Virus record (IMG/VR): IMGVR_UViG_2563366807_000007
Span: 1-23,490 of that record
Direction: 5' to 3' (one strand)
DNA length: 23,490 nucleotides
Origin: a virus
Taxonomy: Duplodnaviria > Heunggongvirae > Uroviricota > Caudoviricetes
Shown here: in pieces, positions 1-10,920 of the stretch
Layout: each line of letters starts with the position of its first letter
Position numbering within the stretch: the stretch's first letter is position 1
Notes under the pieces: model-generated
The model's input: the letters and a program-made list of their open reading frames with translations, nothing else
What the model was told of the DNA's origin: nothing
Database searches by the model: none
Position numbers and translations under genes: made by a program

Positions 1-130
1 CAGGGTTTCCCCGTCTCAGTGGGCGGCAATAGGCGTGCTGGGGAGTCTGCTGTTTGGGCTGCTGACATATCTGACTAACCTGTATTTCAAAATCAAAGAG
101 GACCGGCGTAAGGCGGCGCGGGGAGAGTAA
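1..130 (+). CDS. S: Class II holin, S21-type pinholin, C-terminal portion only (5' end lies outside the window)
   Basis: Frame starting at nt 2 translates to [42 protein letters not shown] with stop TAA at 128-130. This is a hydrophobic TM segment followed by a charged tail and closely matches the C-terminus of phage 21 S21 pinholin as I recall it. A SAR endolysin lies downstream, consistent with a pinholin/SAR pair. Confidence 0.75.
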
Positions 131-131
131 A

Positions 132-746
132 GTGATGAATAAAAAATATGAACTGGTTGTTAAGGGGATAAATAATTACGGGGATAAGGTTACTGTTACT
201 GTGAAGTCGGAAGGTGACGGGCAAGCGTCGCTGTTGTTGCCAGATGTGGCGATTAGTCTTGACCGTACTGAAGGTGCCACGCTGGAGTTTTACGAAGCTG
301 AGGCGAAAAAGCAGGCGAAGCAGTTTTTCATGGATGTTGCTGCCGGGTTATGTGAATGGAACGAACCGTTGCCGGAAAAGCGCCCCGTAATTTTAGAGGC
401 GCAGGATGTGTTGATAACCTACAAAGGAAAGCTACCGGGAAGAATTACTTGTTCTCTGAAGATGCCGCCGTCAACACTGCGGTCAGAAAAAGATGATGTT
501 GAATCACGTATTGAAAAACTGGAGAGCTACGTCGTTGAGCTGAATAAGAAATGGTCGATATTGGTGCCTTCTGGCGATGAAAAGCAGTTTGCTGCGTTTG
601 ACGATTATTGTCGGAAAGTGATGAGCAGAAATCTCGCAGAGTGTTTCAGTATTCATAATGATAATTTCAGTGACCCGGAATGGGAGTGTAACCGGCCATC
701 CTTTGTTGTATCCGGTGATGCGTATTACCGTGAAGGAGATCGGTGA
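132..746 (+). CDS. Hypothetical protein between holin and endolysin; 3' end interrupted by the IS21-family insertion (last few codons and the stop are IS-derived)
   Basis: 204-codon ORF from the track with a GTG/ATG start at 132/135 overlapping the holin stop. No recognisable motif. The left end of the IS (about 731) falls inside the last codons, so the native C-terminus is missing. Confidence 0.5.
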   Translation: MMNKKYELVVKGINNYGDKVTVTVKSEGDGQASLLLPDVAISLDRTEGATLEFYEAEAKKQAKQFFMDVAAGLCEWNEPLPEKRPVILEAQDVLITYKGKLPGRITCSLKMPPSTLRSEKDDVESRIEKLESYVVELNKKWSILVPSGDEKQFAAFDDYCRKVMSRNLAECFSIHNDNFSDPEWECNRPSFVVSGDAYYREGDR

Positions 747-803
747 GTAACATCGATGGAGATCGGTTCGTGTCACTTTCACAGAACCGTTTTTAAATTA
801 CCT

Positions 804-1553
804 TCACTGATCTCCTTCGGTCAACGGAGATTGTATTTTCCGCATTGATTCTCCTTTAAGTTCGATCTTGATACTGCCATGAACCAGTCGATCTAGGATG
901 GCATCCGCATGTGTGGAGTCTCCGATCATTTTGTACCAGTTTTCCACCGGCAACTGGCTCACTACGATGATTGAGCCTCGTTGGTACATCAGATCCACTA
1001 TTTCCAGCAGGTCGCTACGCTGTTCTGATGAGAGAGGTTCCAGCCCCCAGTCATCCAGAAGCAGCAGATCGCTATTATTCAGCCTGGTCAAAAGTTTGCT
1101 GTATCTTCCATCAGCATGCCCCTGATAGCACTGTTCCATCAGCGCTTTAAGGCGATAATAGTAGACCTTGTATCCCTGTCGGCAGGCATTATGACCAAGT
1201 GCACATGCCAGGAACGTTTTACCGCTGCCGGTGGCCCCGGTCAGTAAAATATTTTGTTTCAGGGTTAACCAGTTTCCCTGACTGAGTGAACGGATGAGGG
1301 CCCTGTCCAGCCCTCTATTGTTACGATAATCCAGCTTTGATAACTCAGCATTAAGTCTGAACCGTGCATGTTTGATCAGACGCTCTGCCTTCCTGTTTTC
1401 ACGGCAGGTTAGTTCTTCTGCTGTCAGTAATGACAGGCGTTCTTCGAAGCCCAGCTCCTGGTATGTGCCCGGTTGAGCAAGTTGCTTTTTAAGCGCATCA
1501 CGGAAGCCGGTGAGTTTAAGTGCGGTCAGTTGTTCGTAAAGATGATTCATCAT
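804..1553 (-). CDS. istB: IS21-family helper ATPase IstB
   Basis: 249 aa. Walker A LLTGATGSGKTF and Walker B LLLLDDWG, with the overall IstB/DnaC-like AAA+ layout. Lies immediately downstream of istA on the same strand. Confidence 0.9.
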   Translation of the reverse strand: MMNHLYEQLTALKLTGFRDALKKQLAQPGTYQELGFEERLSLLTAEELTCRENRKAERLIKHARFRLNAELSKLDYRNNRGLDRALIRSLSQGNWLTLKQNILLTGATGSGKTFLACALGHNACRQGYKVYYYRLKALMEQCYQGHADGRYSKLLTRLNNSDLLLLDDWGLEPLSSEQRSDLLEIVDLMYQRGSIIVVSQLPVENWYKMIGDSTHADAILDRLVHGSIKIELKGESMRKIQSPLTEGDQ

Positions 1554-1564
1554 TGGATCCCGTA

Positions 1565-3106
1565 TCAGTGGTAATACTCACTGCCGCGTACGTTTTCGTG
1601 TTCCATCGTGGATAACAGATCTGGTTTTGGATCCTGAACAGGTTGTTTATCCAGACCTTTTTCCAGGATCGATTTAATACCTGACAGACGCCATACCTTT
1701 GTTTTCAGAGCTCTTGCACATGCTGCATTAAGTCTGGCTTTACTGTATTTTTTATGAAGGTTCAGGAGTCCAAGGCAGAAGCGATAGCTTTGTTCCGGAT
1801 GTGGACGAGAGTTCAGTATATGAAGCACATAACTATGAGTTTCACTGCCTATGTGCCCCGCCCATTCCAGAAGACGCTCTGGCGTCCAGGTGGCATGCTG
1901 TCGATGAGCTTCAGGCATGTGCTCGTTGCGGGTACTGTAGCCATAAGTACGCTTGCGCGGGTGCACAGCAACCTCCTGCCCCTGATTGAAGAGTCTTACC
2001 AGTTCTCCGGAGATCCATGCTTCCAGTTGCTGGCCTAACAGCGAACATGGAACCGAGTAGTAATGTTTGTCGATTTCCACGTGGTAATCGGCATGAACTC
2101 TGACTTTCTTCACCAGGGTGTAACTGTAACTGGCTTCAGGAAGAGGCTTCAGTGCGGGTTTATCAAGCTGGATGAAGAGTTCTGCACGTGAATAACCCAA
2201 CTTCTGCATTATTTTGTTATTCAGTCTTTCCAGCAACTCCCGAATGCGCTGATTAAGCGATGCAAGGCTGTAGAAGATCTCATGCCTGATTCGGGCCATG
2301 ATCCAGCGTTCAACAACCTGAACGCCAACTTCAGCTTTGGCTTTATCTTTCGGTTTACGTGGCCGCGCAGGCAAAACTGCGACATTATAATGCTCAAGCA
2401 TCTGCTGGTAGGTAGGGTTAACGTCAGGATCATACTTACATGCCCTGGATGTGGCGCTTTTCAGATTGTCCGGAACAACAAGTTCAGGAACGCCACCCAA
2501 CCACTGGAAGCAGCGAACATGACTCATCACCCAGTCTTCAAGCTGCTGAGACCAGGTGGCCTCTGCCCATGTGTAACTTGATGCCCCGAGAACAGCTACG
2601 ATGACCTGAGCAGTTCTTATTTCTCCGGTCTCAGGGTCGGTAACGCCAACGGTAGGTCCACAGTAATCAACGAAAAGTTTTTCGCCAGCTTTATGTACCT
2701 GACGCATTGATGGTGAAGTGGTTTTGAGCCATTCACGGTACATCCGGCAGTAATGGTTATAGCTGTAAAAACCGCCTGGATTACGCTCACAGTATTCTTC
2801 CCAGAGTAGCTGCAGCGTCACGCATTTATTACGCAGTTCCCGGTGTACTGTAGCCCAGTCAGGCAGAGAGTGCTTCTTCATCTTAACCTGGGTCTGAAGG
2901 AACGCATGTTTTAGTTTTGTATCATCCCATCCTGTAGGTAAGGGCCACTGCTTTATGCCAAGTTGAGCCGCCCGATTAGCATATCTGGATACAACGGAAG
3001 GGGAGATTGCAAGACTACGACCAATTTGTCGATGGCTGAGTCCAACACCGTATTTAAGCCTAAGAATTTCTTTAAGTTTTCTCATAGAAATTGGAACTGT
3101 TGGCAT
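1565..3106 (-). CDS. istA: IS21-family transposase IstA
   Basis: 513 aa. N-terminal helix-turn-helix (LSHRQIGRSLAISPSVVSRYANRA) followed by a large integrase/DDE-type catalytic region. Gene order istA then istB is typical of the IS21 family. Confidence 0.9.
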   Translation of the reverse strand: MPTVPISMRKLKEILRLKYGVGLSHRQIGRSLAISPSVVSRYANRAAQLGIKQWPLPTGWDDTKLKHAFLQTQVKMKKHSLPDWATVHRELRNKCVTLQLLWEEYCERNPGGFYSYNHYCRMYREWLKTTSPSMRQVHKAGEKLFVDYCGPTVGVTDPETGEIRTAQVIVAVLGASSYTWAEATWSQQLEDWVMSHVRCFQWLGGVPELVVPDNLKSATSRACKYDPDVNPTYQQMLEHYNVAVLPARPRKPKDKAKAEVGVQVVERWIMARIRHEIFYSLASLNQRIRELLERLNNKIMQKLGYSRAELFIQLDKPALKPLPEASYSYTLVKKVRVHADYHVEIDKHYYSVPCSLLGQQLEAWISGELVRLFNQGQEVAVHPRKRTYGYSTRNEHMPEAHRQHATWTPERLLEWAGHIGSETHSYVLHILNSRPHPEQSYRFCLGLLNLHKKYSKARLNAACARALKTKVWRLSGIKSILEKGLDKQPVQDPKPDLLSTMEHENVRGSEYYH

Positions 3107-3290
3107 AGGTATCCTTTACCGGAATGGCAAAAGATACAGATCAACACACCTGTGAAGTTCCAATAACATTGATGGAGATCACTGAATAACAAAATGAGTC
3201 AAAAGTGATCTCCATCGATGTTATTCAGCGATCTGTTCAAATGTTATTACCCGATCTCGATGGAAGTTATTGAGTGATCTCCTTTCATGA

Positions 3291-3611
3291 AAATACGCAG
3301 GTGATGCTGGGAAAATAACCATCTCAGAAAATGGGAAAGTAACACCTCCATCGCACCAGCACAGTGAGGAGCTCATTGAATTTGCCATTGATTACCTGAA
3401 GAACAATAAAAAGCAGGGGCTGATGAAGCGCGTTGGCCGTTGCATGGGATATCTTCAGGTAGCCGCTGAGATTGAAGCGCTGGCCAGTGGTGCTGATAAG
3501 GATGCAATTGTGCGGGAGGCTCTTCTTCGTGATTTTAATACTCCACCCTTTAAAAAAGGGCCGGCTTACTGGCTTCATCCGGGGCTGACTTATCTTAAAG
3601 TGCGTATTTAG
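3291..3611 (+). pseudogene. 3' gene fragment to the right of the IS, possibly the C-terminal remainder of the gene at 132..746
   Basis: The frame is open from the IS right flank (KYAGDAGKITISENGK...) to the stop TAG at 3609-3611, with no start codon or RBS at its 5' end. It is in the same frame register (mod 3) as the ORF at 132..746. Alternatively a 62-aa ORF could start at ATG 3423. Confidence 0.35.
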
Positions 3612-3647
3612 TGGGCCAGGGACAGCGGCTGAATATTTAATATATCC

Positions 3648-4181
3648 ATGAACACCAAAATCAAATACGGCCTGTCGGCTGCCGTTCTGGCGCTGATTGC
3701 CGCTGGTGCGCCTGCGCCTGACATTCTCGACCAGTTTCTGGATGAAAAGGAAGGCAACCACACCACGGCATACCGTGATGGTGCAGGTATCTGGACCATC
3801 TGCCGTGGTGCCATCATGGTGGATGGCAAACCTGTCGTTCCGGGCATGAAGTTGTCGAAGGAAAAATGCGACCAGGTTAACGCCATTGAGCGTGATAAAG
3901 CGCTGGCGTGGGTGGAGAAAAACATCAGAGTGCCGCTGACCGAACCCCAGAAAGCGGGGATCGCGTCATTCTGTCCGTACAACATTGGTCCCGGTAAGTG
4001 TTTCCCGTCGACGTTTTACAGACGAATTAATGCTGGTGATCGAAAAGGTGCCTGCGAAGCGATTCGCTGGTGGATTAAGGACGGTGGCAGAGACTGCCGT
4101 ATTCGTTCAAACAACTGTTACGGTCAGGTATCCCGTCGTGACCAGGAGAGCGCGCTGGCGTGCTGGGGTATCGACAGATAA
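3648..4181 (+). CDS. R: SAR endolysin (phage lysozyme, T4/P21 R-type, glycoside hydrolase family 24)
   Basis: 177 aa. N-terminal Gly/Ala-rich weakly hydrophobic signal-anchor-release segment (GLSAAVLALIAAGAPAP). Catalytic spacing E35-8aa-D44-5aa-T50 (EGNHTTAYRDGAGIWT), as in phage 21 R and E. coli prophage RrrD/RrrQ lysozymes. Confidence 0.9.
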   Translation: MNTKIKYGLSAAVLALIAAGAPAPDILDQFLDEKEGNHTTAYRDGAGIWTICRGAIMVDGKPVVPGMKLSKEKCDQVNAIERDKALAWVEKNIRVPLTEPQKAGIASFCPYNIGPGKCFPSTFYRRINAGDRKGACEAIRWWIKDGGRDCRIRSNNCYGQVSRRDQESALACWGIDR

Positions 4182-4337: not shown

Positions 4338-4520
4338 ATGGCGAAGTGTAAACGAATTCTGTTGAGGTTGACTATGAAAAATGGCCTTGAACTGAAAGCG
4401 CCTGTAACTGATGACATCAGCAGAGCACTGGCTTTTGCCATTAAGTGGGTGGCGGTCGGTGTTGCTGTGTCCCCGATGCTGTATGGGCTGGCAAAACTGG
4501 TCATTGCGTTGAAATCGTGA
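4338..4520 (+). CDS. Small predicted membrane protein (60 aa), unknown function
   Basis: ATG at 4338 preceded by AGGGAG. Basic N-terminus ([14 protein letters not shown]) and hydrophobic C-terminal helix ([28 protein letters not shown]). Its stop codon overlaps the RBS of the next ORF. Confidence 0.4.
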
Positions 4521-4534
4521 AGGGAGGATTAAGC

Positions 4535-4666
4535 ATGTCAGACAAACTCATAACGCTGGCGAAGATCCTCTGTGTAATTGTCGGCATTTCATTTTCACTA
4601 ATGCTGGTTGCTCTTTTTCTTTCCATGGCCTGGATGATGTTGTCTTCGTCGGGGTTGCTGGGGTGA
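4535..4666 (+). CDS. Small hydrophobic protein (43 aa), unknown function
   Basis: Strong RBS AAGGGAGGA 7 nt upstream of ATG 4535. Sequence [43 protein letters not shown] is almost entirely transmembrane. Its stop TGA (4664-4666) overlaps the possible GTG start of Rz. Confidence 0.4.
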
Positions 4667-5136
4667 ACATAAACCGAATGCTTTCCGCGTTTATCGTTAT
4701 TCTGCTGGTGGCCTGTGGTGCGCTGTGGATGGCAACAGACCATTACCGTGATAACGCGATTACCTACAAAGCGCAGCGCGATAACAAAGCCAGTGAACTG
4801 AAGCTGGCGAACGCAACCATTACTGATATGCAGGTGCGCCAGCGCGATGTTGCTGCGCTCGATGCAAAATACTCGAGGGAATTAGCCGATGCGAGAGCTG
4901 AAAATGAAACTCTTCGCGCTGACGTTGCCGCTGGTCGTAAGCGCCTGCGGATCAACGCCACCTGTCCAGGCTCCGTGCGTGAAGCCCCCACCACCTCCGG
5001 CGTGGATAATGCAACCGGCCCCCAACTGGCAGACACCGTTACACGGGATTATTTCACCCTCAGAGAGCGGCTGATGACGATGCACAAGCAACTGGAAGGG
5101 GCACAGGACTATATCCGCACTCAGTGCCTGAAATAA
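4663..5136 (+). CDS. Rz: Rz i-spanin (inner-membrane spanin subunit)
   Basis: N-terminal TM segment then [44 protein letters not shown] and a C-terminal [18 protein letters not shown] region, matching lambda Rz as I recall it. Start is either GTG 4663 or ATG 4678. Confidence 0.9.
4889..5074 (+). CDS. Rz1: Rz1 o-spanin (outer-membrane lipoprotein), embedded in the +1 frame of Rz
   Basis: Lipoprotein signal with lipobox LVVSAC, followed by the proline-rich stretch [22 protein letters not shown], nearly identical to lambda Rz1. Lies wholly within Rz in a different frame; an alternative start is ATG 4904. Confidence 0.8.
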
Positions 5137-5446: not shown

Positions 5447-5773
5447 ATGAAAAGACGCCTTTTACTACTTTTTCTGTTATCTGTCCTGGCAGTGGGATGC
5501 TCGCAGCAAAAAGCTGATGAGCCCCGGCAATTAGTGACGGTGTATCCACGATATCCGGAATATGCTGCAGCAAATTATATCAAGGGGCTGGTTGAGGTTA
5601 AGTTCGATATTGGTGCTGATGGGACTGTGACACGGATCGTTTTTCTCCGCTCAGAGCCTCATAATTTGTTTCGTGATGAAGTGGTGAAGGCCATGGCGAA
5701 ATGGCGATTTGAAAAGAATCGCCCCTGTCAGGGAGTGAAGAGACAATTTATCTTTACGCCGTCACGTCCTTGA
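5447..5773 (+). CDS. Lipoprotein with a TonB C-terminal-like domain (moron)
   Basis: 108 aa. Signal peptide MKRRLLLLFLLSVLAVGC with lipobox AVGC and Ser at +2. The remainder (YPEYAAANYIKGLVEVKFDIGADGTVTRIVFLRSEPHNLFRDEVVKAMAKWRFEKNRP) aligns motif by motif with the E. coli TonB C-terminal domain ([11 protein letters not shown]..DGRV....[24 protein letters not shown]). Confidence 0.7.
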   Translation: MKRRLLLLFLLSVLAVGCSQQKADEPRQLVTVYPRYPEYAAANYIKGLVEVKFDIGADGTVTRIVFLRSEPHNLFRDEVVKAMAKWRFEKNRPCQGVKRQFIFTPSRP

Positions 5774-6536: not shown

Positions 6537-6548
6537 GGGCGGCGACCT
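6537..6548. other. cosN: cosN: 12-nt cohesive-end sequence GGGCGGCGACCT, matching the lambda cos sequence as recalled
   Basis: Sequence GTTACGGGGCGGCGACCTCGCGGGTTTTCGCTATTTATGAAAATTTTCCGG matches, from memory, the junction of the lambda right and left genome ends. It sits about 185 bp upstream of the terminase small-subunit gene. Confidence 0.8.
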
Positions 6549-6700
6549 CGCGGGTTTTCGCTATTTATGAAAATTTTCCGGGAACCATGTCCGGTTTCTC
6601 TTCAAGTTAACTATATGAAAAATAAAAAAAGAGGTCTTCTGTGAACCGGACATGCACAAAAAATAGACATGTAAGCCGGACATGACCGGTTTTGTTGTGA
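6549..6700 (+). promoter_or_regulatory. cosB: cosB-like terminase binding region: three copies of CCGGACATG (one inverted) flanking an AT-rich putative IHF site
   Basis: CATGTCCGG at 6586-6594 (inverted), CCGGACATG at 6646-6654 and 6676-6684, with an AT-rich segment (TTAACTATATGAAAAATAAAAAAAG) between the first and second. This mirrors the lambda R3-I1-R2-R1 arrangement. Confidence 0.6.
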
Positions 6701-9331: not shown

Positions 9332-10920
9332 AACGAACGCCTGTCCTGATTGATGTGAACGGCGTTCCGCTTCGGGAGAGCCTCAGCTACAACGGGGGCG
9401 GCGCAGGATTTGGCGGGCAAATGGCGGAGTGGTTGCCACCGGCGCAGAGTGCCGATGCGGCCCTGCTGCCCGCGTTGCGTCTGGGGAATGCCCGGGCAGA
9501 TGATCTGGTGCGCAATAACGGGATAGCGGCCAATGCGGTGGCCCTGCATAAGGATCACATTGTCGGGCATATGTTTCTTATCAGCTACCGCCCGAACTGG
9601 CGCTGGTTGGGGATGCGGGAGACCGCGACAAAAAGTTTTGTCGATGAGGTGGAGGCGGCCTGGTCAGAATACGCAGAAGGGGTGTTTGGCGAGATCGACG
9701 TGGAAGGGAAACGCACGTTTACAGAATTTATTCGTGAAGGTGTGGGCGTTCATGCGTTTAACGGCGAAATCTTTGTGCAGCCGGTCTGGGATCCGGAGAG
9801 CACGCAACTGTTTCGTACGCGTTTTAAAGCCGTGAGTCCGAAACGGGTGGACACGCCAGGACATGGTATCGGGAACCGTTTTCTGCGGGCCGGGGTGGAG
9901 GTCGATCGATATGGTCGTGCCGTTGCGTACCATATCTGTGAGGATGATTTTCCGTTCTCCGGGAGTGGACGATGGGAACGGATCCCGCGTGAACTTCCCA
10001 CCGGGCGTCCGGCCATGCTGCATATTTTCGAGCCGGTGGAGGACGGGCAGACCCGTGGGGCTAATCAGTTTTACAGCGTTATGGAACGGCTGAAGATGCT
10101 CGATTCCCTGCAGGCAACACAGCTTCAGTCGGCCATAGTGAAGGCGATGTATGCAGCGACGATTGAAAGTGACCTTGATACCGAAAAGGCCTTTGAATAT
10201 ATCGCCGGTGCGCCGCAGGGGCAGAAGGATAATCCGCTTATTAATATTCTGGATAAGTTCTCCACCTGGTATGACACGAATAGCGTGACGCTGGGCGGTG
10301 TCAAAATTCCGCACCTTTTCCCCGGTGATGATCTGAAACTTCAGACCGCGCAGGATTCAGACAATGGATTTTCGGCGCTTGAACAGGCGCTGCTGCGGTA
10401 TATCGCCGCCGGTCTTGGCGTTTCCTACGAACAGTTGTCCCGTGATTACTCGAAGGTCAGTTATTCAAGTGCCCGCGCATCCGCCAATGAGTCGTGGCGC
10501 TATTTTATGGGGCGGCGAAAATTTATTGCGTCCCGGCTGGCCACGCAGATGTTTTCCTGCTGGCTGGAAGAGGCACTTCTTCGGGGGATTATTCGTCCGC
10601 CACGGGCACGTTTTGATTTTTATCAGGCGCGATCAGCCTGGTCACGGGCTGAGTGGATTGGAGCCGGAAGAATGGCCATTGACGGGCTCAAGGAGGTTCA
10701 GGAATCAGTGATGCGCATTGAGGCCGGACTGAGCACGTATGAGAAAGAGCTGGCGCTGATGGGCGAGGATTATCAGGACATTTTCCGCCAGCAGGTCAGG
10801 GAATCTGCAGAGCGGGAAAAAGCCGGACTCTCACGTCCGGTGTGGATAGCGCAGGCGTATCAGCAGCAGATAGCGGAGAGTCGCAGGCCGGAAGAGGAGA
10901 CAACACCACGTGAGACGTAA
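9328..10920 (+). CDS. B: Portal protein (lambda gpB-like)
   Basis: 530 aa. Collinear match to lambda gpB (GNARADDLVRNNG, HVFEPVEDGQTRGAN.FYSVME, LQSAIVKAMYAATIES, LLRYIAAGLGVSYEQLSR, WIGAGRMAIDGLKEVQE). Confidence 0.95.
   Translation: MKRTPVLIDVNGVPLRESLSYNGGGAGFGGQMAEWLPPAQSADAALLPALRLGNARADDLVRNNGIAANAVALHKDHIVGHMFLISYRPNWRWLGMRETATKSFVDEVEAAWSEYAEGVFGEIDVEGKRTFTEFIREGVGVHAFNGEIFVQPVWDPESTQLFRTRFKAVSPKRVDTPGHGIGNRFLRAGVEVDRYGRAVAYHICEDDFPFSGSGRWERIPRELPTGRPAMLHIFEPVEDGQTRGANQFYSVMERLKMLDSLQATQLQSAIVKAMYAATIESDLDTEKAFEYIAGAPQGQKDNPLINILDKFSTWYDTNSVTLGGVKIPHLFPGDDLKLQTAQDSDNGFSALEQALLRYIAAGLGVSYEQLSRDYSKVSYSSARASANESWRYFMGRRKFIASRLATQMFSCWLEEALLRGIIRPPRARFDFYQARSAWSRAEWIGAGRMAIDGLKEVQESVMRIEAGLSTYEKELALMGEDYQDIFRQQVRESAEREKAGLSRPVWIAQAYQQQIAESRRPEEETTPRET

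What the first reader, a model, noticed from the sequence alone, without database searches (positions are those of the whole stretch)
731..3287. Complete IS21-family element inserted in the late lysis operon, with no obvious target-site duplication
An apparently intact istA/istB element lies on the minus strand between the holin and the endolysin. Being transcribed against the late operon, it is likely to be polar on the endolysin and spanin genes, so the prophage may be lysis-defective even though its cos site and morphogenetic genes look intact. I could not identify the 4-8 bp direct repeat expected of IS21-family transposition (left flank ...TATTACCG, right flank TGAAAATACG...). That could mean my boundaries are slightly off, or that an IS-mediated deletion or rearrangement occurred next to the element.
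Basis: partly seen in the sequence, partly recalled or inferred. Interest (0 to 1): 0.5.

Follow-up and report, generated by a model that had tools for sequence, protein, structure and literature searches.

The report
Ordinary ISEc12 insertion with normal duplication
A well-known E. coli jumping gene (ISEc12) has landed inside a small prophage gene of unknown function next to the lysis genes; it left the normal 5-base footprint, so the 'missing footprint' came from drawing the ends 12 bases too far in.

Summary
The element is real and intact, but its ends are window 719 and 3299 (2581 bp), not 731 and 3287. With these ends it has perfect 8-bp termini (TGCGTATT…AATACGCA) and a clean 5-bp target duplication, GGTGA, at 714-718 and 3300-3304.

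Deleting 719-3304 restores a continuous 296-aa ORF. That ORF has a YdfR/DUF1327 N-terminus and matches PHROG 1085 end to end. The rebuilt 815-nt empty site is 100% identical over its full length to many complete E. coli chromosomes.

The element matches annotated ISEc12 (IS21 family) copies with 0-2 mismatches. Six other chromosomal copies and about 20 viral-contig copies share the same ends and length, and 5 bp is the commonest duplication.

The IS lies inside a gene between the class II holin and the endolysin, not in an intergenic gap. The other 20,186 bp of the window are 100% identical to uninterrupted prophages, so the insertion is recent. It was found in only two draft assemblies.

Polarity on the endolysin and spanin genes is possible but unproven, and I think it unlikely. 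A Q antiterminator lies upstream, and the IS shows no convincing sense-strand terminator. This is ordinary, already known biology.

The parts
2..130 (+). 3' end (last 42 codons plus stop) of a 71-aa class II (S21-type) holin gene. The 5' end falls in an assembly gap just before window position 1.
   Evidence: Gene call with PF04971 in L007/L008. The full 216-bp 'class II holin family protein' is present in the uninterrupted reference L009. An N-run ends exactly at the window start.
135..718 (+). 5' part (codons 1-196, the last one completed in the element) of the interrupted 296-aa YdfR-family/DUF1327 gene. In the window it reads on into the IS and stops at 744-746, giving a 203-aa product with the IS-encoded tail YYREGDR.
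   Evidence: Pfam DUF1327 E=5.9e-41. Translation and count of shared residues.
714..718 (.). [quoted passage not shown]
   Evidence: The empty site has a single GGTGA.
719..3299 (-). ISEc12 (IS21 family), 2581 bp, termini 5'-TGCGTATT…AATACGCA-3'.
   Evidence: 100% identity over 2581 bp to copies annotated 'IS21-like element ISEc12 family'. 0-2 mismatches to six copies at other sites, with the same ends. Same ends and length in viral-contig copies.
719..785 (.). Terminal inverted repeat on the istB side (IRR). It contains two direct GGAGATC-centred repeats 23 bp apart (734-752, 757-775).
   Evidence: End-to-end alignment. Repeat families D1/D2 and inverted pair I1. GGAGATC positions.
804..1550 (-). 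istB, 248-aa AAA+ helper ATPase (Walker A GATGSGKT, Walker B LLLLDD).
   Evidence: PF01695 E=2.2e-67. NF038214 270 bits against a cut-off of 200. The identical copy in L006 is annotated WP_001016257.1. Related to IS5376 IstB structures 8q3w/5bq5.
1565..3106 (-). istA, 513-aa DDE transposase (N-terminal HTH, rve core, Mu-transposase-C-like domain).
   Evidence: PF00665 and PF22483. NF033546 310.5 bits against a cut-off of 160. The identical copy in L006 is annotated WP_001298859.1. Related to IS5376 IstA structures 8b4h/8q4d.
3162..3299 (.). istA-side end (IRL). The terminal inverted repeat is 3232-3299. Further GGAGATC/GATCTCC-centred repeats lie inside it (3162-3191, 3204-3225, 3242-3258, 3266-3289). 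These are the multiple terminal repeats typical of IS21-family ends.
   Evidence: (I1-I7, D1-D3).
3300..3304 (.). [quoted passage not shown]
3305..3610 (+). 3' part (codons 197-296 plus stop) of the interrupted YdfR-family gene, now untranslated.
   Evidence: The ORF is restored on deleting 719-3304. An identical continuous 297-codon ORF is present in L009. PHROG 1085 matched 1-296/296, E=7.6e-190.
3648..4181 (+). Endolysin (177 aa, phage lysozyme with a hydrophobic N-terminal segment), downstream of the insertion and itself unaltered.
   Evidence: PF00959 E=2.4e-24. Annotated lysozyme / rrrQ in identical references.
4663..5136 (+). Rz-type spanin gene with embedded Rz1-like lipoprotein ORF (4889-5074), unaltered.
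   Evidence: PF03245 E=2e-47. ORF list. Annotated 'lysis protein' in L043.

Best explanation
A standard, apparently active copy of ISEc12 (IS21 family, 2581 bp, window 719-3299, genes on the minus strand) transposed recently into codon 196/197 of a 296-aa YdfR-family gene. That gene lies between the class II holin and the endolysin of a lambda-like prophage. Integration was a normal IstA/IstB-mediated simple insertion with staggered cuts 5 bp apart, which duplicated GGTGA.

Shown: the identity of the IS, its ends, the duplication, restoration of the ORF, and exact contiguity of the flanks in uninterrupted prophages.

Inferred: the mechanism (DDE transposase IstA, with the AAA+ ATPase IstB delivering target DNA), from family membership. 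The consequence is also inferred. The YdfR-family protein is truncated to 196 native residues plus 7 IS-encoded ones. The downstream lysis genes are probably still transcribed, because late transcription in such phages is Q-antiterminated.
For: - The two ends align from 719 and 3299 inward, with 8/8 perfect termini TGCGTATT/AATACGCA.
- The rebuilt 815-nt empty site is 100% identical over 100% of its length in all 15 listed complete E. coli chromosomes. In total, 496 genomes cover at least 80% of it.
- In L009 the left flank ends at 9419 and the right flank starts at 9420.
- The IS is 100% identical to copies annotated ISEc12.
- Six copies at other loci are all 2581 bp with the same termini, with duplications of 5 bp (4 copies) or 7 bp (2 copies).
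- In a sample not chosen by flank, 23 complete viral-contig copies had duplications of 5 bp (11), 6 bp (1), 7 bp (5), 8 bp (1) or none (5).
- A published ISEc12 insertion in tssM of EC958 has a 5-bp duplication, ACTGC (PMC10711316).
- IstA and IstB pass the NCBIfam IS21 equivalog cut-offs.
- The restored protein matches PHROG 1085 over 1-296/296.
- Window 3305-23490 is 100% identical, in one piece, to uninterrupted prophages whose Nu1-to-J genes are annotated intact.
Against: - The source is a draft scaffold with gaps. The interior of a multi-copy IS may therefore be a consensus of several copies, and 'intact' is not proven for this particular copy.
- The 3 bases after the right GGTGA (TGC) equal the first 3 bases of the IS, so this site alone also allows an 8-bp repeat GGTGATGC. 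Only the other copies resolve the ambiguity.
- No comparison with ISfinder was possible. The name ISEc12 rests on RefSeq/PGAP annotation of identical copies.
Confidence: 0.95

Rival explanations
1. One reading: the IS has no target duplication because an IS-mediated adjacent deletion, or recombination between two IS copies, removed or replaced one flank.
For: With ends set at 731/3287 the flanks (TATTACCG / TGAAAATA) do not repeat. Five of 23 ISEc12 copies in viral contigs do lack a duplication, so such events happen elsewhere.
Against: The corrected ends give a clean GGTGA duplication. The flanks are exactly contiguous and 100% identical in uninterrupted prophages. The ORF is restored.
Confidence: 0.01
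2. The insertion is strongly polar. The 2.9 kb of untranslated antisense IS RNA stops late transcription before the endolysin and spanin genes, so the prophage cannot lyse its host and is locked in.
For: About 2.9 kb (747-3647) has no long + strand ORF; the longest stop-free stretch is 129 codons. In an ordinary operon this favours Rho-dependent polarity. The IS genes are transcribed head-on against the late operon.
Against: - A Q antiterminator gene and a terminator-like hairpin just after it lie upstream in the same scaffold.
- Q-loaded polymerase is processively termination-resistant (PMC9388147). Polarity suppression by Q is classical (Forbes & Herskowitz 1982, seen only as a citation).
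- Terminator-like sites on the + strand are weak and no more frequent than in shuffles: 8 found against 5.0 ± 3.0.
- No C-rich/G-poor tract was found by a crude scan.
- The endolysin and spanin genes are themselves unaltered.
Confidence: 0.2
3. The duplication is 8 bp (GGTGATGC at 714-721 and 3300-3307) and the element is 722-3299.
For: GGTGATGC occurs on both sides in this window. IS21-family duplications of up to 8 bp exist, and one 8-bp case was seen.
Against: All other copies begin with TGCGTATT whatever their flank. The two termini are a perfect 8-bp inverted repeat only with 719 as the first base.
Confidence: 0.02
4. Assembly artefact: a scaffolder placed a collapsed IS contig in a gap, and there is no IS at this site in the real genome.
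For: The window comes from a gapped draft scaffold and starts at the end of an N-run. No complete RefSeq E. coli genome has either junction.
Against: Both junctions are continuous sequence with no Ns, and they carry the duplicated GGTGA that only a real insertion produces. The same junctions occur in two different NCBI assemblies.
Confidence: 0.02

Closest known systems
ISEc12 (IS21 family insertion sequence of E. coli)
   Same: 100% nucleotide identity over 2581 bp to copies annotated ISEc12 in RefSeq. Same termini and the same IstA/IstB proteins (WP_001298859.1, WP_001016257.1). Same 5-bp duplication length as the published tssM insertion in ST131 strain EC958 (PMC10711316).
   Different: Only the insertion site. 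This site, in a YdfR-family prophage gene, was absent from 5,426 complete E. coli genomes and present in two draft assemblies.
IS21 / IS5376 (prototype and structurally characterised IS21-family members)
   Same: The istA-istB gene pair. The ends are 5'-TG…CA-3' with several internal repeats. The duplication is short. IstA and IstB are homologous to the IS5376 proteins with solved transpososome and IstB structures (8b4h, 8q4d, 5bq5).
   Different: ISEc12 is longer (2581 bp, IstA 513 aa). From my own recollection, not checked here, IS21 and IS5376 are about 2.1 kb. The similarity to the IS5376 proteins is distant (E about 1e-13 and 1e-27).
essQ-ydfR-rrrQ-rzpQ lysis cassette of the E. coli K-12 Qin prophage / phage 21-type lysis cassettes
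   Same: A class II holin, then a YdfR/DUF1327 gene, then a lysozyme annotated rrrQ in some identical copies, then Rz/Rz1. The gene order of Qin is from my own knowledge.
   Different: Here the YdfR-family gene is 296 aa (PHROG 1085) rather than about 100 aa, and it is split by the IS.

Membership tests
IS21 family | Two consecutive genes: istA (DDE transposase with N-terminal HTH) followed by istB (AAA+ helper ATPase). | tested here: met
   istA 1565-3106: NF033546 at 310.5 bits (cut-off 160), plus rve and Mu-transpos_C_2 domains. istB 804-1550: NF038214 at 270 bits (cut-off 200), and PF01695 E=2.2e-67.
IS21 family | Terminal inverted repeats ending 5'-TG…CA-3', with multiple repeated sequences inside each end. 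| tested here: met
   Termini TGCGTATT / AATACGCA. The imperfect inverted repeat is 719-785 against 3232-3299. GGAGATC-centred repeats: 2 direct plus 1 inverted at one end, and at least 4 at the other.
IS21 family | Short (4-8 bp) direct target-site duplication. | tested here: met
   GGTGA at 714-718 and 3300-3304. A single copy is present in the empty site.
IS21 family | Transposition activity, including tandem-junction intermediates and IstB-dependent target capture. | not testable with these tools
   Inferred from homology only. Recent activity is suggested by near-identical copies at many sites.
ISEc12 (specific element) | Near-identity in nucleotide sequence to the reference element over its full length. 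| tested here: met
   100% over 2581 bp to RefSeq copies named 'ISEc12 family' by PGAP, and 0-2 mismatches to six other copies. ISfinder itself could not be queried, so the name is taken from the annotation.
YdfR / DUF1327 family (the interrupted gene) | Match to the DUF1327 profile above the gathering score. | tested here: met
   PF07041 at 139 bits against a cut-off of 25, residues 1-100. The remaining 196 residues match no Pfam family and no PDB sequence. The whole protein matches PHROG 1085.

The most novel reading that the evidence does not exclude
The insertion does cripple expression of the endolysin and spanin genes despite Q antitermination. It would then be a natural, very recent 'lock-in' of an otherwise perfect lambda-like prophage: 20 kb identical to uninterrupted copies. 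That would be a snapshot of the first step of prophage domestication by an IS. A lesser reading: ISEc12 makes two discrete duplication lengths (5 and 7 bp), which would imply two strand-transfer geometries.
Probability: 0.15. Interest if true: 0.3.

Novelty: already known. Interest (0 to 1): 0.07.

Why it matters
It matters little beyond correct annotation. The apparent anomaly, an IS21-family element without a target duplication, would have hinted at a rearrangement. It disappears once the ends are placed correctly.

The practical lesson is that the ISEc12 ends extend 12 bp beyond the conspicuous GGAGATC repeats. A secondary point is that PGAP labels the uninterrupted 296-aa gene a truncated YdfR pseudogene.

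The only open biological question is whether a 2.6-kb antisense IS in a Q-antiterminated late operon affects lysis. It is testable, but the expected answer is 'little'.

Tried and rejected
Rejected.
- Searching 185,579 species-representative genomes for the left junction and for the IS right end: no exact match in either. They gave no information on origin or on other insertion sites.
- Searching for the truncated protein from the GTG start at 132: not on record. With the ATG at 135 it was found in two assemblies.
- Target-motif preference for GGTGA: 4 of 7 chromosomal sites contained it. Those hits had been ranked by how far they extended into this window's flanks, so they are biased. The viral-contig sample, not chosen by flank, shows no such motif. 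Rejected as a selection artefact.
- Terminator and rut-like scans of the + strand of the IS: nothing above background. This is weak negative evidence only.
- PDB sequence search with the restored YdfR-family protein: no match. Its function remains unknown.
- The two-piece matches in ST131 genomes are an ISEc12 next to a partial ISEc12 fragment. Irrelevant to this site.
Full report
**What is there**

The minus strand carries two intact genes. One is 1565-3106 (513 aa; rve integrase core and Mu-transposase C-terminal domain; NCBIfam 'IS21 family transposase', 310.5 bits against a cut-off of 160). The other is 804-1550 (248 aa; IstB_IS21, E=2.2e-67; NCBIfam 'IS21-like element helper ATPase IstB', 270 bits against 200).

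**Where it ends**

- Aligning the left end with the reverse complement of the right end shows that the similarity does not stop at 731/3287. It runs out to 719 and 3299, where both ends read TGCGTATT (8/8), followed by TGAAGGAGATC / TGAAAGGAGATC.
- The element is thus 719-3299, 2581 bp, with the 5'-TG…CA-3' termini usual for the IS21 family.
- Immediately outside lie GGTGA (714-718) and GGTGA (3300-3304).

**Independent tests of these ends**

1. Removing 719-3304 (the IS plus one GGTGA) fuses 135-718 to 3305-3610 into one 296-codon ORF.
2. The rebuilt 815-nt empty site is 100% identical over its full length in every one of the 15 listed complete E. coli chromosomes. In total, 496 genomes cover at least 80% of it.
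3. In one of those genomes (locus L009) the left flank ends at 9419 and the right flank begins at 9420. Nothing is missing or added apart from the 5-bp duplication.
4. Six ISEc12 copies at unrelated chromosomal sites (tape-measure gene, yjaB, a T6SS gene, a glycosyltransferase gene, rhs, P2-type gpM) are all exactly 2581 bp and start and end with the same bases. They differ from this copy by 0-2 mismatches and are flanked by direct repeats of 5 bp (four copies) or 7 bp (two copies).
5. A sample not chosen by flank gave 23 complete copies with both flanks in IMG/VR viral contigs, found through the IstA protein. Their duplications were 5 bp (11), 6 bp (1), 7 bp (5), 8 bp (1) and none (5). Five bp is the modal class.
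6. A published ISEc12 insertion in tssM of ST131 strain EC958 is flanked by a 5-bp duplication (PMC10711316).

The alternative of an 8-bp duplication (GGTGATGC) arises only because the three bases after the right GGTGA happen to equal the first three of the IS. The other copies exclude it.

**Identity**

The 2581 bp are 100% identical to many copies that RefSeq annotates as 'IS21-like element ISEc12 family'. In all, 1,909 of 5,426 complete E. coli genomes hold a match, with a median of three places per genome. ISfinder could not be consulted, so the name rests on that annotation.

The ends carry the multiple internal repeats expected of IS21-family ends. These are GGAGATC-centred units 23 bp apart at 734-752 and 757-775, and at least four related units in 3162-3289. 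IstA and IstB are distant homologues of the IS5376 proteins, for which transpososome and IstB structures exist (8b4h, 8q4d, 5bq5).

The mechanism is inferred from this membership and was not tested. It would be a DDE transposase, with an AAA+ helper delivering target DNA and staggered strand transfer 5 bp apart.

**What was hit**

- The IS is not in an intergenic gap. It splits a 296-aa gene at codon 196/197.
- The N-terminal 100 residues of that gene are DUF1327/YdfR.
- The whole protein matches PHROG 1085 from 1 to 296 of 296 (E=7.6e-190, function unknown). It has no PDB relative.
- In the window the truncated gene encodes 196 native residues plus YYREGDR.
- Upstream is the 3' end of a 71-aa class II holin (PF04971).
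- Downstream are a 177-aa lysozyme (3648-4181), two small conserved ORFs, and Rz (4663-5136) with an embedded Rz1-like ORF. After these come a TonB_C-domain ORF, cos (GGGCGGCGACCT at 6537-6548) and lambda-type Nu1-A-W-B-C-D-E…J genes.

**Age and distribution**

- Window 3305-23490 (20,186 bp) is 100% identical, in one piece, to uninterrupted prophages in several complete genomes. The Nu1-to-J genes there are annotated without pseudogene flags. The insertion is therefore very recent.
- Neither junction occurs in any of the 5,426 complete genomes.
- The truncated protein is on record in two NCBI draft assemblies, GCA_000350625.1 and GCA_000407665.1. The latter is identical to the window over the 10.7 kb compared.
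- The window starts exactly at the end of an N-run in those scaffolds. The first 29 holin codons are therefore simply not assembled.
- The reference has 1,418 bp in that gap (iraM, a DUF1737 pseudogene, the holin 5' end).
- Because the source is a short-read draft, the interior of a multi-copy IS may be a consensus. The junctions, however, are continuous sequence.

**Consequence for lysis**

About 2.9 kb would be untranslated on the + strand; the longest stop-free stretch is 129 codons.

Several points argue against it here:
- This is a lambdoid late operon. A Q antiterminator gene (PF06323) lies 1.3 kb upstream in the same scaffold, followed by a hairpin plus T-run resembling tR'.
- Q-loaded RNA polymerase is termination- and pause-resistant over tens of thousands of nucleotides (PMC9388147).
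- Suppression of polarity by Q is a classical result (Forbes & Herskowitz 1982), which I saw only as a citation.
- The consensus scan found 8 weak terminator-like sites against 5.0 ± 3.0 in shuffles, none convincing.
- A crude scan found no C-rich/G-poor tract.
- The endolysin and spanin genes are unchanged.

I put the chance of a real lysis defect caused by this insertion at about 0.2. Only induction and transcript measurements can settle it.

**Verdict**

This is a routine, recent insertion of a known IS with a normal 5-bp duplication. It is already known biology of low interest.

Noticed in passing
window 1-130; L008 7447-8236; L007 537-9866: The window begins exactly where an N-run of the source scaffold ends. 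The first 29 codons of the 71-aa holin, and everything back to the region downstream of Q, are therefore unassembled. The uninterrupted reference has 1,418 bp there (iraM, a DUF1737 pseudogene, the holin 5' end). Holin integrity cannot be judged from this window.
   Followed up: yes
window 6582-6588 (cosB, 34 bp after cosN GGGCGGCGACCT at 6537-6548): The two draft assemblies that share this IS insertion differ only by a block of 7 consecutive bases: GAACCAT here against TTTGAGG in L007. From memory, TTTGAGG is closer to the phage lambda sequence at this position. This may be a real cosB variant, or cross-talk between several lambdoid prophages in a short-read assembly.
   Followed up: partly
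L010-L039 (IMG/VR viral contigs) and L001-L006: ISEc12 duplications fall mainly into two lengths, 5 bp (15 of 29 copies) and 7 bp (7 of 29). Five viral-contig copies have no duplication at all, which suggests recombination between copies or misassembly there.
   Followed up: partly
L009 8833-9726 (equivalent to window 132-718 + 3305-3610): In uninterrupted genomes PGAP annotates this gene as a 336-bp 'YdfR family protein' pseudogene 'missing C-terminus'. Yet the ORF is continuous for 297 codons and matches PHROG 1085 end to end. This is probably an annotation artefact of a short family model.
   Followed up: yes
window 5447-5773 (+): A 108-aa ORF with a lipoprotein-like signal (…LAVGCSQ) and a TonB_C domain lies between Rz and cos. 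It is annotated 'TonB family protein' in RefSeq but labelled 'Rz-like spanin' in PHROG 1267. It looks like a moron, a non-essential gene carried by the prophage, rather than a lysis gene.
   Followed up: partly
window 4338-4520 and 4535-4666 (+): Two small conserved ORFs (60 and 43 aa; PHROGs 1115 and 4906, function unknown) sit between the endolysin and Rz genes.
   Followed up: no
hit H81, NZ_CM137001.1 5147529-5170130: In strain HSP60 the same prophage (100% identical to window 3305-23490) carries a different IS21-family element, ISEc10, within the morphogenetic region. This prophage has therefore been hit independently by IS21-family elements.
   Followed up: no
L044 (NZ_AP022525.1 4407180-4411678) and the other two-piece hits: In ST131-type genomes a full ISEc12 lies next to a partial fragment of the 5' end of ISEc12. 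The fragment is annotated as a truncated helix-turn-helix protein.
   Followed up: partly
L006 (NZ_CP124455.1, P2-type gpM): An ISEc12 copy identical to this one sits in a P2-like small-terminase gene, with the same duplication GGTGA followed by TGC. This is very likely a coincidence, surfaced because hits were ranked by extension into this window's flank.
   Followed up: yes
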